A stretch of DNA of 36,660 nt from the IMG/VR virus record IMGVR_UViG_3300020042_003420, positions 1 through 36,660 of that record; one strand, 5' to 3'. Positions 2,969-35,803 of the stretch are shown in pieces. Both the position numbers and the translations under genes were made by a program. Numbering within the stretch: the stretch's first letter is position 1; each line of letters starts with the position of its first letter. The notes beneath the pieces were generated by a model that saw nothing but the letters and a program-made list of their open reading frames with translations, was not told the origin of the DNA and made no database searches. The stretch comes from a virus (Duplodnaviria > Caudoviricetes).

Positions 2969-3147
2969 TTGCTTGGTTTTTGTGGATTTGCAAGGATTAG
3001 GACTGCAACAATGTCAGCAAAGATGCAAGCCCAAAATAGGTTGTAGTTCCACTTTTCGGAGATCAACCCCGCTTGATGGACGCAATGGAATACGCCAACA
3101 TGGGCGAGAAGAACTATGGTGAAGAATGCGGCTGGGTGTAGTTTCAT
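2965..3147 (-). CDS. Small two-TM membrane protein, 60 aa
   Basis: Two hydrophobic segments; ATGA-coupled. Confidence 0.7.
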   Translation of the reverse strand: MKLHPAAFFTIVLLAHVGVFHCVHQAGLISEKWNYNLFWACIFADIVAVLILANPQKPSK

Positions 3148-3413
3148 GGTTTGAAATGATGTTTGTATCTTGGATGGGTTTTTAGTTTCGGTGCATTTTT
3201 GATTTGCGAGGCCGTAGCGTTCCAGCTTTGGCCTAAATAAGTGGCGATTTCTGTTTTAGTCATGCCGATTTGAAGCATTTGACTTGCAATAATGCTTTTA
3301 AGTCTTGAAGCGTTCCAAGTGTCTTTTTGAGTATTTTCCGCCATTATTTCAACCTCGCTCACTGGCGGGATTGCATTCTGGCAGACGTTTCGGATGATTT
3401 CACTCGGAAGCAT
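3144..3413 (-). CDS. HTH protein, weakly DnaA-C/TrpR-like
   Basis: GMTKTEIATYLGQSWNATASQIK HTH pattern; start chosen at MLPSEII. Confidence 0.55.
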   Translation of the reverse strand: MLPSEIIRNVCQNAIPPVSEVEIMAENTQKDTWNASRLKSIIASQMLQIGMTKTEIATYLGQSWNATASQIKNAPKLKTHPRYKHHFKP

Positions 3414-5235: not shown

Positions 5236-5264
5236 AACCCCGCCTGTCTGATTTAGGCGGGGTT
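5236..5264. promoter_or_regulatory. Strong intergenic stem-loop (AACCCCGCCT/AGGCGGGGTT)
   Basis: 10-bp perfect inverted repeat; U-rich tail only on the + strand, so either an antisense terminator or an mRNA-stabilising/processing hairpin. Confidence 0.6.
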
Positions 5265-5288
5265 GTTTGTTTCGTTAAATGGTTTAAT

Positions 5289-5480
5289 TTAGATTTTTTT
5301 TTTGCTAAGTGTCATTGATCCATTGATCCATTCAATCACGAAATCACCAGGATTCCTATCAATCAATTTTTTGGCCGCATCCTTCTCAGAGAATGCAAAT
5401 GATGCATCGTTCGGTAATGAGGCCTGGAATCCAATTTGCTTAGTTAATGGGTCGAGCATCCTAGTGATTTTAATTGTCAT
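5289..5480 (-). CDS. Hypothetical early protein, 63 aa
   Basis: ORF with AC-rich leader, directly downstream of the hammerhead. Confidence 0.7.
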   Translation of the reverse strand: MTIKITRMLDPLTKQIGFQASLPNDASFAFSEKDAAKKLIDRNPGDFVIEWINGSMTLSKKKI

Positions 5481-5510
5481 TTTCTTTGTTTAGTTTCTTT
5501 GGTTTGGTTT

Positions 5511-5560
5511 AGTCTCATCAGTTGCGTCATTAACGCAAGACGGCTTACGCCGTTTCGACT
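5511..5560 (-). ncRNA. Type II hammerhead ribozyme
   Basis: Minus strand reads AGUC-GAAA-CGGC GUAA GCCG-UC^-UUGCGU UAAUG ACGCAA-CUGAUGA-GACU: all core nucleotides, GUC cleavage triplet, stems I and III closed, stem II open. Confidence 0.93.
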
Positions 5561-5845: not shown

Positions 5846-5874
5846 AAGGTAAATCATGGATTTAGCCCTGGCAA
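5846..5874 (-). promoter_or_regulatory. Early sigma70 promoter
   Basis: TTGCCA-N17-TACCTT on the minus strand with an AT-rich UP-like tract at 5875-5899. Confidence 0.75.
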
Positions 5875-5899
5875 TAAAAATCTTAATTATTTTTCAAAT

Positions 5900-6600
5900 C
5901 AGCTACAAGCCCCATAAACAAAGGGGTTGAGAGCCTTGGGAATCCATTCCAAACCCAGATTTTTATTAGCAAACCCCTAATCACTACATAGATGGCATAT
6001 ATATCAGGCCTTATGCTCTTTGGGGTTGTATTAGGCAAGGTCAGTAGCAGAGGCTTAAGTAAGCTTACTGGCAGGCCTCTAGCTCCCTTAAGGTGATTTT
6101 AACCATGGATGCTGATGGCTTGTCTATAGCTAATATTGGCAGTTGAGAGCTAATCCCAGTAAAAGCGTTGATTATTTTTGATACCCCCCCTTAAAATGTG
6201 GTGTTCAAGCGCACATCACGCTATTTCAGCCGTAAATGGGCCTAGAATCGCTTGGCATGGTTTATGGGGTAAGGCTAGGGCCGATCAATTCAAAGCGATT
6301 TCCATCTAACAATGTGACATGATGTAACATGGCATGGAATCTGTACTGCGCTATTCTTGTTACATTGTCCAGGTCATGGCGTTCTGCAGAACAATGGTCG
6401 CATGAACGCTGTTCGTTTGAATATGGCCTGGGGTTGAGCAAGTGATTCAAGCGGGTGATTTAAACGATCGTTTGAATTTGACGATTGGCGCAGGGATGTA
6501 ATGTTACATTGCGGCATTAGGGGGGGAGGGGGTTGAGGGTGGGCTTGGTTTAAAAATGTTGAGCGATTAACTCCCCAAACAAAAAATTCCCAAATGTTAA
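5900..6600. other. Non-coding control region between the divergent arms (candidate origin and/or packaging/terminus region)
   Basis: No credible ORF; contains palindromes, repeated motifs, and C7 and G-rich tracts. Confidence 0.6.
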
Positions 6601-29760: not shown

Positions 29761-30060
29761 ATGAAAATCCCTAAATCAGTATTGATTGGAGGGATTAAAT
29801 TCAAGATTCGCATCAAGAAGATGGAGTCTTGGGGTGAGATGCACTTTGATGACAAGGAGATCCACATATCAAAAAACTCCATCCTCAAAGAGCATATTTT
29901 TCTTGACACGCTTCGCCATGAGATGCTTCATGCGTCATTATCAGTCGCTGGAACATCATGGAGTGATAAGTATGACGAAGAATCCATAGTTCGCGCGATT
30001 GAGAATATCTTCTTCCCTGCGTTTAACTTAATCAAAAATCAAATTAGCGATGGCATTTAA
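29761..30060 (+). CDS. Small zinc metallopeptidase-like protein (minigluzincin/ImmA-like)
   Basis: MKIPKSVLIGG...DTLRHEMLHA...EESIV; start reassigned to 29761. Confidence 0.75.
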   Translation: MKIPKSVLIGGIKFKIRIKKMESWGEMHFDDKEIHISKNSILKEHIFLDTLRHEMLHASLSVAGTSWSDKYDEESIVRAIENIFFPAFNLIKNQISDGI

Positions 30061-30778
30061 AAAATTCCTAGTATGTGCTGATAATCACGGGCATCTTGTG
30101 AATCAAGAGTGCAAGAAGAAGTTCATAGACTTCAAGAAAGAGTGGAAGCCTAATTACACCATTTGCTTGGGAGACATTTGGGACATGAACGGACTCCGTA
30201 GGTCTGCTGATGACGAGGAGAAGCGCGAAGGCATTTCTGCTGACTTCAAGGCTGGAATTGAGTTTCTTGACATTGGGTTTAACTACCTAACGCTAGGAAA
30301 CCACGATGCAAGGCTCTGGGAGGCCGCTGAAGGCGCAGCAAATGGAATACTGCGTGAATCATGCCAAGAGCTTGTAAAGTGCGTTACAGGCGAGTTCAAG
30401 AAGCGCAAGATCAAATGGGTTCCGCACAATGTTAATTCGTATTTGCAACTTCCAGAAGGAGGGCCAAAACTCATCCACGGGTTCTTAGCTGGAATGAATC
30501 CCGCTAAGGCGCATTTCGAGCGGTTCGGTAGCTGTTTATTCGGCCATGTCCACGCTCCCTCATCATACGTTGCGAAGCATATTGACCAAGGACAAGCGTA
30601 TGCTTTACCGTGCATGGCAGATATTGAGTCACTAAAGTACGCTGAACGCTATCCTAATCGCCTTGGATGGCGTAATGGCTGGGGCTTTGGCATAATCAAT
30701 GAAAAGACTGGCAAATGGTCTTTCTGGAATGTAACCAAGGAAGACGGGTCTTACATCTCCCCAATGGGAATTTTATAA
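30050..30778 (+). CDS. Calcineurin-like metallophosphoesterase
   Basis: DNHG, LGDIWD, GNHD, HG and GHVH motifs in canonical order. Confidence 0.9.
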   Translation: MAFKKFLVCADNHGHLVNQECKKKFIDFKKEWKPNYTICLGDIWDMNGLRRSADDEEKREGISADFKAGIEFLDIGFNYLTLGNHDARLWEAAEGAANGILRESCQELVKCVTGEFKKRKIKWVPHNVNSYLQLPEGGPKLIHGFLAGMNPAKAHFERFGSCLFGHVHAPSSYVAKHIDQGQAYALPCMADIESLKYAERYPNRLGWRNGWGFGIINEKTGKWSFWNVTKEDGSYISPMGIL

Positions 30779-34115: not shown

Positions 34116-34384
34116 TATTCCAGTACCTCCTGCACGGTGATGCGTTCCCATTCATTTGGCCCATACCATTTGTCTGGATTACTATTGAGTACTTTACCCG
34201 CCATATGTAGCCATACATCCCATGTGCGCGGTTCTGGTTTGATGCGGTAGCATTTTGGGTCAAATCCAAATTCTAAATTTACACCATCTTCCCAATGACC
34301 ATCAATATGCTTAAATTGAATTTTTTTACCATCTGCCAATGCTTGTACTAAAGGCAGGAATAAGAGTGCGTTTTCTTTGTTCAT
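34115..34384 (-). CDS. Hypothetical phage protein, 89 aa
   Basis: LPLVQALADGKKIQ...YRIKPEP recurrent phage motif. Confidence 0.75.
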   Translation of the reverse strand: MNKENALLFLPLVQALADGKKIQFKHIDGHWEDGVNLEFGFDPKCYRIKPEPRTWDVWLHMAGKVLNSNPDKWYGPNEWERITVQEVLE

Positions 34385-34572
34385 GTGTCGTCTGCTGCTA
34401 GTTCTTCGATCTCCAGTAATTTACCCACAATTTTGTGGGCGGTTTCCAATGTCATTAGTGAGTCCTTATTCGCTGGGAAGTCTTTTTCGTTAAGTTTCAT
34501 AACCCAAAGGCTTGAGTTGGTGTTATCGTCAATTAGGGATTGGTCATCCCAGAGTTCTAGTGTTATTTTCAT
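34381..34572 (-). CDS. Hypothetical acidic protein, 63 aa
   Basis: ATGA-coupled on both sides. Confidence 0.65.
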   Translation of the reverse strand: MKITLELWDDQSLIDDNTNSSLWVMKLNEKDFPANKDSLMTLETAHKIVGKLLEIEELAADDT

Positions 34573-35225
34573 GCTTGTCCCTTCGGTTTGTCGTCGTTCT
34601 TGATGGTCATCTTAAATCCAACGCGAGCAGCTTTGTGGTACACCACAATGCCTTCTGGATTCATGTATTCTAGTGAGGCTACGCTGCCCAAACACGCAAG
34701 TCGGTTTAATTCACTTCTTGCGGCAAGGGTGCTGAATAACCCATCATACAGTACAGGAACCACTTTGCAACAAGCAGGCGCGTGTTCTTGGAACACAGGC
34801 GGTGCTTTTGGATTATCGCTGGAGATAGAAGCTGTTGGCTTGTCATGCTCGACCCAACGGGTAGCGTTGAAAAGCGAGAAGAACCGCTCGCCGTTTTTGT
34901 AGCCGTAGCCGCGTTGGATGCCACTGCCCCACCACTCGCCAAAGTGGTGTCCTTCGCCTAATTCGAATAGCTCAGACGTATGGTCGTATACCCATCTAGC
35001 AAAACCAAAGTTGTCGTCTGCTAAGGTAATCCAACGGTTGCGGCTACCAACCCACATTCCCAAAGGAACATTTTCTGTGTACTGGATTCCAATGCACTGT
35101 GCATCTCCAGAAATGTAAGGGCCAATGTAAATGCTGGCATTAGTGCCGTCGATTTTTTCAGTAATAATGCACTCGCGTCGAAGGCGAGCCATTTTCGGGA
35201 ATGGTTTGAATTCTAGTGTGTTCAT
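34569..35225 (-). CDS. ATP-dependent RNA ligase, minimal Rnl2-like nucleotidyltransferase domain
   Basis: Motif I TEKIDGTN, Ia GSRNRW, III FGEWWG, IIIa FSLFN, IV PEGIVV, V FK. Confidence 0.88.
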   Translation of the reverse strand: MNTLEFKPFPKMARLRRECIITEKIDGTNASIYIGPYISGDAQCIGIQYTENVPLGMWVGSRNRWITLADDNFGFARWVYDHTSELFELGEGHHFGEWWGSGIQRGYGYKNGERFFSLFNATRWVEHDKPTASISSDNPKAPPVFQEHAPACCKVVPVLYDGLFSTLAARSELNRLACLGSVASLEYMNPEGIVVYHKAARVGFKMTIKNDDKPKGQA

Positions 35226-35236
35226 AGTTTTAGTGG

Positions 35237-35320
35237 GGTGACGGCCCGTTGACTTTCTGCAAATTTGGAATTCGCATGGAACCTTTACATTGTGGGACGG
35301 GCCAAGCCCACAACAGCACC
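35237..35320 (-). ncRNA. Pseudoknotted multi-stem RNA in the RNA ligase leader
   Basis: P1 GGUG/CACC; P2 UUGUGGG/CCCACAA; P3 UGCGAAUU/AAUUUGCA; P2 loop GGCCCGU complementary to downstream ACGGGCC. Confidence 0.65.
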
Positions 35321-35325
35321 AAGAG

Positions 35326-35400
35326 TGGTCAGCGAGCAGGATTCTCTACCTGCGTTTCCCAGTTTATCGGTCTGGGCGGATTCGATCATCCTATCGCTGA
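35326..35400 (-). tRNA. Non-canonical tRNA-like RNA (loop centred on GAU, Ile-like), ends in CCA
   Basis: UCAGCGA UA GGAU GAUCGA AUCC G CCCAG ACCGAUAAA CUGGG AAAC GCAGG UAGAGAAU CCUGC UCGCUGA CCA: four perfect stems but aberrant loops. Confidence 0.75.
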
Positions 35401-35405
35401 AGGTA

Positions 35406-35603
35406 TTATTGGTAGTAATCTTGGTATTTAAGTTCGCATTCTTCACAGATAACACCAAGGAAGAAGTGATTAACCATTTCAACTCCGCATTCACAAAAGT
35501 CAACATTTGAGTCTTGCTTTGGCTTTCTAAAGATACTTTCATAGTTTTTGCTATAAGTATCCATATCAACTGGTCTAGGTGAATCTCCTTTTCCTGCGCT
35601 CAT
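35406..35603 (-). CDS. Small phage protein with a C-terminal Zn ribbon
   Basis: GKGDSPRP....Y..NY..IF motif plus CEC...CEEC. Confidence 0.75.
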   Translation of the reverse strand: MSAGKGDSPRPVDMDTYSKNYESIFRKPKQDSNVDFCECGVEMVNHFFLGVICEECELKYQDYYQ

Positions 35604-35803
35604 TTTACAAGTTTATACTTTGCAAAAGTTTTGCCGTTAGCTTGTTGATTGATTGTTTGAATCATGTACCCCATTTCGCGTAGGTCATGGATTCTAGCAC
35701 TCAATCGAAAGCATCCCCATTTATTCAAGGCTTGAATCGGAGTAATTGCATAACCTCGATTTAACCATGATTCCAGCTTTTCAATAATTGACTTCGCCTT
35801 CAT
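35600..35803 (-). CDS. Winged HTH protein
   Basis: ITPIQALNKWGCFRLSARIHDLREMGY.I.T; start at 35803. Confidence 0.8.
   Translation of the reverse strand: MKAKSIIEKLESWLNRGYAITPIQALNKWGCFRLSARIHDLREMGYMIQTINQQANGKTFAKYKLVK

What the first reader, a model, noticed from the sequence alone, without database searches (positions are those of the whole stretch)
34569..35400. Candidate RNA module: tRNA-like RNA -> pseudoknot RNA -> minimal RNA ligase on one transcript
Seen: the 180-nt gap before the Rnl2-like ligase gene is almost entirely filled by two structured RNAs, a CCA-ending cloverleaf and, 5 nt later, a pseudoknot ending ~11 nt before the ATG. Known: T4 counters the anticodon nuclease PrrC with an RNA repair pair (Pnk/Rnl1), and phage tRNAs can offset tRNA-targeting defences. 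Inference: this may be a compact anti-defence or RNA-repair unit in which the tRNA mimic is a decoy, sensor or ligase substrate and the pseudoknot processes its 3' end or controls ligase translation. I know of no described system with this layout.
Basis: partly seen in the sequence, partly recalled or inferred. Interest (0 to 1): 0.85.

Follow-up and report, generated by a model that had tools for sequence, protein, structure and literature searches.

The report
Misshapen phage tRNA mimics beside ligase
A phage carries, next to an RNA ligase gene, a conserved misshapen tRNA look-alike with isoleucine identity marks and a second conserved RNA predicted to be knotted; related phages mix the three parts freely, so they are likely separate tools, probably against host defences that attack tRNA, rather than one fixed machine.

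Summary
The window is a complete 36.7-kb phage. The 180-nt gap before an Rnl2-like, nucleotidyltransferase-only ligase holds two conserved elements. RNA 1 (35326-35399, minus strand) is a real cloverleaf: 12 of 20 pairs change on both sides and the GAU anticodon is kept in 33 of 33 anticodon-blind hits. Its geometry is odd: 6-bp acceptor plus 5-bp T-stem, 9-nt anticodon loop, 8-nt variable T-loop, no elbow signature. ARAGORN and Rfam miss it. RNA 2 (35239-35321) is conserved, but its pseudoknot stems show no compensatory change and it has no HDV/theta topology; it does show a tryptophan-like loop and an acceptor-like stem. The three-part module does not hold: 4 of 48 contexts have it, 60 of 80 ligase contigs lack RNA 1, and 4 of 8 near-complete RNA 1 genomes lack the ligase. 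Best reading: freely shuffled accessory parts, with RNA 1 likely a tRNA-Ile mimic against tRNA-targeting defence. No function was tested.

The parts
35326..35399 (-). RNA 1: non-canonical cloverleaf, 74 nt. Acceptor 6 bp (35399-35394 with 35335-35330); D arm 35391-35378; anticodon arm 35376-35358 with a 9-nt loop (GAU at 35368-35366); T arm 35353-35336 with an 8-nt loop; A73 at 35329; CCA at 35328-35326
   Evidence: fold z -4.2; 98% of cells paired, 12 of 20 pairs with double-sided change; single copy in the genome; the only hit of a generic cloverleaf descriptor in the window
35239..35321 (-). RNA 2: conserved element with a predicted H-type pseudoknot (P1 35314-35307 with 35296-35289; P2 35303-35297 with 35249-35243). 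A hairpin 35276-35258 in loop 3 has a 7-nt loop (35270-35264) centred on CCA. P2 is followed by G and (C/U)CA
   Evidence: 13 variants; pair counts; chance test; 9 IMG/VR contigs
34569..35225 (-). 218-aa ATP-grasp RNA ligase-like protein, nucleotidyltransferase domain only
   Evidence: PF09414 E 2.6e-12, phrog_548 E 2.5e-27; motif residues invariant in 42 homologues; model pLDDT 85.9; best fold matches NgrRnl and T4 Rnl2
35406..35603 (-). 65-aa ORF of unknown function directly upstream; homologues often precede RNA 1, and one follows a tRNA-Leu gene in L018 (context only)
34381..34572 (-). 63-aa ORF after the ligase; homologues directly follow RNA 2 or RNA 1 where the ligase is absent, which marks the ligase as an optional insert (context only)

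Best explanation
RNA 1 is a conserved, misshapen tRNA look-alike with isoleucine identity marks that is likely cut from the early transcript and would act in trans as a decoy or nuclease-resistant stand-in against a host defence that attacks tRNA-Ile; RNA 2 and the ligase are separately shuffled neighbours, not parts of one fixed unit. Shown: structure, covariation, invariant anticodon, near-invariant discriminator, free elbow loops, independent distribution of the three parts. Inferred: excision by host nucleases and CCA repair; binding by an anticodon- or acceptor-reading toxin or synthetase; poor ribosome use (11-bp acceptor branch, usually C before the anticodon, no elbow signature); the ligase resealing 5'-phosphate/3'-hydroxyl nicks in tRNA without a kinase partner. 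RNA 2 is read, with less confidence, as a second mimic (tryptophan-like loop, pseudoknotted acceptor-like stem) or as a 5' leader.
For: Covariation: 66 cells with double-sided change, 0 of 500 shuffles and no slid control close. Anticodon kept while the stems vary: GAU followed by AAA in 25 of 25 and 33 of 33 stretches from scans that left the anticodon free; these are overlapping, related sequences. A73 in 33 of 34 and following CC in 33 of 34 unique cores. C4-G69 invariant. Anticodon, discriminator and C4-G69 are listed as Ile determinants in PMC9976931 (section read). U8 and G53-C61 were invariant in 23 of 23 though not required by the selecting pattern. T-loop middle is free, with 9 different loops among 34 cores and one 9-nt loop (L313). 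Shared by 36-kb and about 60-kb phage types that otherwise share little beyond this accessory array. Ligase-positive relatives lacking RNA 1 carry other tRNA-like genes: Rfam tRNA in 7 of 14, against 0 of 8 RNA 1 genomes, including two odd cloverleafs with an 8-nt T-loop of the same format. Precedent for phage tRNAs defeating tRNases: PMC11464382, PMC10264068 (passages). Toprim cuts leave ligatable ends and a single nick was repaired by T4 Rnl1 and Rnl2: PMC12445682 (passages).
Against: No function, expression, RNA end or host was determined. No known phage-defence nuclease specific for tRNA-Ile(GAU) turned up in the search listing. All variants come from one narrow group, so invariance partly reflects kinship. 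One variant has C73 and one lacks CC. tRNA-Pyl lacks the elbow signature yet translates (PMC7609411 passages), so missing GG/TPsiC does not prove a decoy. tRNA-like leaders raise translation in cis in vitro (PMC9142559 section). Published cases are non-cleavable working tRNAs, not decoys.
Confidence: 0.45

Rival explanations
1. RNA 1 is a working, aminoacylated tRNA-Ile of unusual geometry that reads AUC/AUU on the ribosome and so replaces host tRNA-Ile; the shortened acceptor is offset by the longer T-loop and anticodon arm.
For: Ile determinants kept. Length 74-75 nt is near canonical. Core tertiary positions are kept. tRNA-Pyl and mitochondrial tRNAs translate with 6-bp anticodon stems and without the elbow signature.
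Against: Prokaryotic tRNAs are described as having a 12-bp (or, for Sec, 13-bp) acceptor branch read by EF-Tu (PMC5389517 passages); this one has 11. U before the anticodon occurs in only 2 of 34 cores. Ile and Trp usage is ordinary.
Confidence: 0.17
2. Both RNAs act in cis on the early mRNA: a tRNA-shaped translation enhancer or processing signal, and a 5' leader knot or two-state switch that protects or gates the gene array behind it.
For: RNA 2 ends 13 nt before the AUG in the window and close to an AUG in relatives. It starts about 7 nt after a sigma70-like promoter in 6 records. An alternative nested fold that covers the sequence just upstream of the AUG is also compatible with its C/U variation. 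ACCA of RNA 1 can pair with the UGGU that opens RNA 2 in tandem loci. tRNA-like leaders raise translation 2- to 6.3-fold in vitro.
Against: The gene that follows differs freely. A cis enhancer need not keep a specific anticodon and discriminator (the ACCA end mattered little). The yjdF-type effect needs the D-loop GG, which is absent here. No T-box bulge in 13 of 13.
Confidence: 0.2
3. One reading: a dedicated unit in which RNA 2 is a ribozyme or regulator that matures RNA 1 or controls the ligase, and the ligase acts on RNA 1.
For: Exact layout in 4 of 48 contexts (window, L008, L010, L141). Ligase near RNA 1 in 20 of 34 contigs. All 9 RNA 2 contigs carry RNA 1. tRNA-plus-ribozyme units exist in gut phages (PMC10879173, parts 1-2 read).
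Against: Each part occurs without the others in near-complete genomes. A loose HDV descriptor hits 0 in the window and 1 of 13 variants, against 14 of 100 shuffles. The spacer is about 20 nt in the other 9 tandem contexts, beyond the theta rule of 5 nt. The ligases behind the tandem do not group on the tree: the window's nearest ligase (L001, 88%) has a different layout.
Confidence: 0.07
4. The elements are decaying tRNA relics or DNA-level cassette ends carried along by recombination in an accessory array, without a current RNA function.
For: Cassettes are visibly reshuffled around a shared A-rich translation-start sequence. Wobble polarity does not fix the strand: 6 G-U against 4 A-C cells among 34 cores.
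Against: 98% pairing with compensatory change in all four helices once the D-stem register is corrected. The sense strand folds better (z -4.2 against -1.9). Loop and 3'-end invariants make sense only on the coding strand.
Confidence: 0.08

Closest known systems
Phage tRNAs that neutralise tRNA-targeting defence (T5 tRNA-Lys against PARIS, PMC11464382; anticodon-loop hypothesis, PMC10264068)
   Same: Phage-encoded tRNA-shaped RNA with an altered anticodon arm and kept identity bases; plausible anti-defence role.
   Different: Those are canonical tRNAs that translate. RNA 1 has a 6/5 branch, a 9-nt loop and no elbow signature, and ARAGORN and Rfam miss it.
Non-canonical tRNAs: allo-tRNAs 8/4 and 9/3 (PMC5389517), tRNA-Pyl and mitochondrial tRNA-Ser(UCN) (PMC7609411)
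   Same: Altered stem lengths, loss of D/T-loop signature, some phage-borne or linked to toxin-antitoxin loci.
   Different: The passages read describe 12- or 13-bp acceptor branches; '11 bp' has 0 occurrences in PMC7609411. RNA 1 has a short variable loop and an 8-nt T-loop.
tRNA-associated theta (minimal HDV-like) ribozymes (PMC10879173)
   Same: A pseudoknotted RNA directly after a phage tRNA; an RNA ligase is often in the same genomes.
   Different: RNA 2 lacks P3/L3 and the nested second knot, is often far from RNA 1, and the ligase there is the DRB0094 family.
Plant-virus tRNA-like structures with a pseudoknotted acceptor arm (PMC9976931 passage)
   Same: RNA 2: 7-bp stem inside a knot, followed by G and CCA or UCA, with an anticodon-like loop.
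   Different: DNA phage, internal position, no covariation in the knot, CCA in only 6 of 13 variants; aminoacylation untested.
T4 Rnl2 / Naegleria NgrRnl ligases and the T4 Pnk-Rnl1 repair pair
   Same: Nucleotidyltransferase fold and motifs.
   Different: 218 aa against about 335-340, no C-terminal domain, no Pnk kinase found. The family is common in phages without these RNAs (83 INPHARED records).

Membership tests
canonical tRNA (RF00005) | four-helix cloverleaf with N73-CCA end | tested here: met
   CC in 33 of 34, CCA in 23 of 34
canonical tRNA (RF00005) | 7/5, 12-bp acceptor branch | tested here: not met
   6+5 in all cores
canonical tRNA (RF00005) | 7-nt anticodon loop with U33 | tested here: not met
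   9-nt loop; U before GAU in 2 of 34
canonical tRNA (RF00005) | D-loop GG and 7-nt TPsiC loop (signature as described in PMC7609411) | tested here: not met
   no GG at 18-19; 8-nt loop with free middle; no ARAGORN or Rfam hit
tRNA-Ile identity set (PMC9976931) | GAU anticodon, A37, A73, C4-G69 | tested here: met
tRNA-Ile identity set (PMC9976931) | minor determinants at 12:23 and C29-G41 | tested here: inconclusive
   12:23 is C-G or A-U; 29:41 is C-G in 29 of 34 but depends on the register chosen
tRNA-Ile identity set (PMC9976931) | isoleucylation by IleRS | not testable with these tools
   needs an assay
theta / HDV-like ribozyme (RNA 2) | nested double pseudoknot with P3, L3 and catalytic C in J4/2 | tested here: not met
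   loose descriptor 0 hits in window, 1 of 13 variants, 14 of 100 shuffles (no positive control was run); Rfam none at E 10
theta / HDV-like ribozyme (RNA 2) | cleavage site within 5 nt of the tRNA 3' end | tested here: not met
   true only in the window; about 20 nt in 9 other tandem contexts, 1.7-3.4 kb in 6 records
theta / HDV-like ribozyme (RNA 2) | Mg-dependent self-cleavage | not testable with these tools
   needs an assay
pseudoknotted viral tRNA-like structure (RNA 2) | pseudoknot acceptor arm ending in N73-CCA | tested here: inconclusive
   7-bp stem plus invariant G; CCA 6 of 13, UCA 7 of 13; no double-sided change, 2 breaks in P2
pseudoknotted viral tRNA-like structure (RNA 2) | anticodon-like loop matching the discriminator identity | tested here: met
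   loop YUCCAAA in 13 of 13 while 9 of 12 stem columns vary; CCA and G73 are bacterial Trp determinants. The scan left the hairpin free and found only these contigs
pseudoknotted viral tRNA-like structure (RNA 2) | free 3' end and aminoacylation | not testable with these tools
   no raw reads available
T-box riboswitch (RNA 2) | antiterminator bulge UGGNACC (motif recalled) | tested here: not met
   0 of 13; no Rfam hit
Rnl2-like RNA ligase | nucleotidyltransferase motifs and fold (motif names recalled) | tested here: met
   K24 of EKIDG, R64, E97, F119, E191 and K205 invariant in 42; Foldseek E 2e-4 to T4 Rnl2, TM 0.42
Rnl2-like RNA ligase | C-terminal domain after the nucleotidyltransferase domain | tested here: not met
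   protein ends 13 residues after K205; longer homologues were not searched
T4-type Pnk plus ligase repair pair | polynucleotide kinase in the same genome | tested here: not met
   PF13671 in 0 of 1 and 0 of 9; other kinase families not searched

The most novel reading that the evidence does not exclude
These phages make a kit of deliberately distorted tRNA decoys: a 6/5 isoleucine cloverleaf, a pseudoknotted tryptophan tRNA-like structure (an architecture I know only from plant RNA viruses) and, in relatives, further odd cloverleafs. The decoys soak up tRNA-targeting defence enzymes without entering the ribosome, while a stand-alone minimal ligase reseals nicked tRNAs or decoys. This would be a class of RNA anti-defence factors that tRNA finders miss.
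Probability: 0.25. Interest if true: 0.85.

Novelty: new variant of a known kind. Interest (0 to 1): 0.6.

Why it matters
Phage tRNAs are known to counter tRNA-cutting immunity, but the cases read here are ordinary tRNAs. A compact, covariation-supported family with an 11-bp acceptor branch that keeps only identity bases is missed by ARAGORN and Rfam. It gives a ready test of whether phages use non-translating tRNA decoys, and of how short an acceptor branch bacterial machinery tolerates. It also suggests that phage tRNA repertoires are undercounted.

Tried and rejected
Rfam (gathering on the window, E 10 on 35000-35700) and ARAGORN: nothing. No DNA match to the 180 nt in INPHARED phages, and no cloverleaf pattern hit in GTDB genomes.

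Host: one terminase hit on a 7-kb contig in an Actinomycetota MAG, too weak to assign a host.

RNA data: two runs with small shares. One 193-nt contig of a relative spans the upstream ORF, RNA 1 and the next start. Contigs cannot show ends, strand or level, so this is no evidence either way.

D-loop/anticodon-loop kissing was considered and dropped, because variants L002, L009, L014 and L124 break it. Hammerhead, twister and glmS core motifs: 0 of 13 in RNA 2 (motifs recalled). A pistol-like reading was compared by eye from memory and did not fit. Stop-codon recoding or a Trp-suppressor role: all three stops are used.

Rows dropped before counts: 8 of 32 stretches were not cloverleafs; 1 of 41 (L174); 3 of 12; 20 weak hits, of which those examined lie in a dnaB-like coding region. 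GAU counts are by construction and are not used as evidence. MAFFT misplaced the D-stem gap in 3 of 23 rows of A1, which lowers the D-stem counts.

Not in print: 9 paper searches listed no description of this RNA. In the IMG/VR structured-RNA survey PMC10690425, 4 of 6 text-held supplements were searched without a hit. The two zip files and three oversized files could not be read, so either RNA may be among its 10,006 candidates. Weinberg-type motif lists beyond Rfam were not checked. Look-ups of earlier scan findings by place and sequence were empty.

Full report
Setting. The window is a complete 36,660-bp phage record with direct terminal repeats. Head, tail and lysis genes lie on the plus strand; recombination, replication and many small genes lie on the minus strand. 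The finding lies in the minus-strand array of small genes. The ORF 34569-35225 is a 218-aa PF09414/phrog_548 protein. Catalytic-motif residues are invariant in 42 aligned homologues (motif names recalled). The model (pLDDT 85.9) matches NgrRnl and T4 Rnl2 best, at modest TM scores of 0.41-0.47, and has no C-terminal domain. The family is large and ordinary: at least 7,999 homologues and 83 cultured-phage records. No AAA_33 kinase is present in the window or in 9 near-complete relatives, so a T4-style Pnk partner is not evident.

RNA 1. Bases 35399-35326 fold into a cloverleaf that is both MFE and centroid (z -4.2, 0 of 200 shuffles; the opposite strand gives -1.9). ARAGORN and Rfam find nothing. 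Homologues came from ligase-anchored loci and from pattern scans. In 23 distinct sequences, 98% of cells pair and 12 of 20 pairs change on both sides; no shuffle of 500 and no slid control comes near. The geometry is constant and non-canonical: 6-bp acceptor, 4-bp D-stem with a 6-7-nt loop, 5-bp anticodon stem with a 9-nt loop, 4-nt variable loop, 5-bp T-stem with an 8-nt loop. Two scans that left the anticodon free returned GAU followed by AAA in 25 of 25 and 33 of 33 stretches (overlapping, related sequences). The base before the anticodon is C in 31 of 34 unique cores, the discriminator is A in 33, CC follows in 33 and a full CCA in 23. C4-G69 is invariant. Anticodon, discriminator and C4-G69 are Ile determinants (PMC9976931, Ile section read). 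U8 and G53-C61 are invariant in 23 of 23 without being selected for, whereas the D-loop GG and TPsiC signature are missing and the T-loop middle varies freely. Selection therefore keeps the fold and the identity bases but not the elbow. That the RNA is made, processed or charged is not shown.

RNA 2. Bases 35321-35239 are conserved in 13 variants and 9 IMG/VR contigs; three scans found no more distant members. An H-type knot of 8+7 bp with a 3-nt first loop is possible, and 34 of 2000 shuffles allow a 7+7 knot. However, neither knot stem has a double-sided change, five pairs are broken in single variants, and the overall covariation score is within shuffle range (52 of 500). A nested alternative that pairs the 5' end with the sequence before the AUG fits the variation as well. 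It is not HDV/theta-like (no positive control; theta criteria from PMC10879173, parts 1-2 of 7 read). One feature points to a second mimic. The hairpin in loop 3 keeps the 7-nt loop YUCCAAA in 13 of 13 while 9 of 12 stem columns vary, three pairs with double-sided change. The 7-bp knot stem is followed by invariant G and CCA (6) or UCA (7). CCA and G73 are bacterial Trp determinants, and viral tRNA-like structures have pseudoknotted acceptor arms (PMC9976931 passages). This reading is an inference from few, close variants.

The module test. RNA 1 is on 20 of 80 ligase contigs, all among the 41 contigs (ligases 59% identical or more), and on 0 of the 39 more distant ones. Of 34 IMG/VR contigs with RNA 1, 14 have no ligase match; many are fragments, but among those at least 90% complete the ligase is present in 4 of 8. 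G045 and G049, complete with terminal repeats, carry both RNAs and no ligase. G032 carries RNA 1 and ligase without RNA 2, and G028 and G034 carry the ligase alone. Of 48 distinct contexts, 10 have the RNAs adjacent and only 4 have the ligase next. In 6 records RNA 2 starts about 7 nt after a sigma70-like promoter, 1.7-3.4 kb from RNA 1. Two loci join RNA 1 directly to a ligase start identical to the window's, with RNA 2 absent. The ligases behind tandem RNAs do not group together (tree of 42 rows, distant loci left out). The 36-kb type and the roughly 60-kb type share mainly this accessory array. So the layout in the window is one arrangement of a fast-shuffling array. The loose link (ligase 14-1261 nt downstream where present; RNA 2 always with RNA 1, 9 of 9) could be shared purpose or hitchhiking.

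Context that favours a tRNA-like role. In 14 ligase-positive records without RNA 1, Rfam tRNA matched in 7; in 8 near-complete records with RNA 1, in none (the two sets differ in completeness and lineage). These are Thr, Leu, CAU-type and one irregular long-arm gene. L018 and L020 also hold odd cloverleafs that ARAGORN misses, with a 6-nt anticodon loop and an 8-nt T-loop of the same format; the L018 one just reaches the Rfam tRNA cut-off. They link RNA 1 to real tRNA and suggest a wider set of distorted genes.

Mechanism. Most likely (0.45), RNA 1 is released from the early transcript, CCA-repaired, and engages a host factor that reads the Ile anticodon or acceptor end, acting as a decoy or resistant stand-in during tRNA-directed defence. 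The ligase would independently reseal 5'-phosphate/3'-hydroxyl nicks, the end type that ATP-grasp ligases need (PMC7824862 passages) and that Toprim tRNases leave (PMC12445682 passages). All these steps are inferred. Rivals: cis leader or switch (0.2; PMC9142559 abstract and section 8), working tRNA (0.17; PMC7609411 and PMC5389517 passages), relic (0.08), the fixed three-part unit (0.07). PMC11464382, PMC10264068 and PMC13056530 were seen as passages only.

Novelty and verdict. Neither RNA is in Rfam or in cultured phages, and nine paper searches listed no description. The alignments of the IMG/VR survey PMC10690425 (passages read) could not be opened, so prior computational listing is not excluded. 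It works like a phage anti-defence tRNA but is not a canonical tRNA, not a theta unit and not a Pnk/Rnl1 pair. Rating: new variant of a known kind, interest 0.6.

Noticed in passing
window 5509-5560 (-): Minimal type II hammerhead ribozyme core with all three stems, in a gap of the early leftward operon; found by a descriptor script only here among the fetched loci, not listed by Rfam even at E 10. Core motifs recalled.
   Followed up: partly
L018:5136-5212 (+) and L020:5019-5092 (+): Further odd cloverleafs about 1.4 kb downstream of the ligase: extended acceptor (8 bp in L018; 7 bp plus an extra base in L020), 6-nt anticodon loop, 8-nt T-loop; they lie in small clusters with canonical tRNAs and another shared, unannotated sequence block (L018 about 5255-5335, L020 about 5260-5340).
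   Followed up: partly
L341:1501-1591 (+) (G028): Irregular long-variable-arm tRNA-like gene whose anticodon ARAGORN cannot call; the loop contains CUA, so possibly an amber-suppressor-like or broken tRNA.
   Followed up: no
L208, L231, L253 and related loci, about 3120-3200 (-): A 17-nt stretch of the common RNA 1 D-arm is exactly complementary to the coding strand of a dnaB-like helicase gene of another phage group. The window's own D-arm differs; probably chance.
   Followed up: partly
window 35329-35318 (-): The ACCA end of RNA 1 can pair with the UGGU that opens RNA 2 in tandem loci, masking the CCA end; UGGU is invariant in 13 of 13 RNA 2 variants, also where RNA 1 is far away.
   Followed up: partly
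window 30050-30778 (+): Metallophosphoesterase (phrog_221) at the end of the late region; it could in principle heal RNA 3' ends but is not linked to the ligase.
   Followed up: no
window 5850-5900 (-): Sigma70-like promoter with an A/T-rich upstream element at the start of the leftward operon, read by eye; similar in form to the promoter before stand-alone RNA 2.
   Followed up: no
window 35406-35603 (-): Small ORF with a conserved N-terminal AGKGDxPR-like motif, widespread in aquatic phages (138 relatives), no Pfam, PHROG or NCBIfam match; often next to RNA 1 or a tRNA.
   Followed up: partly
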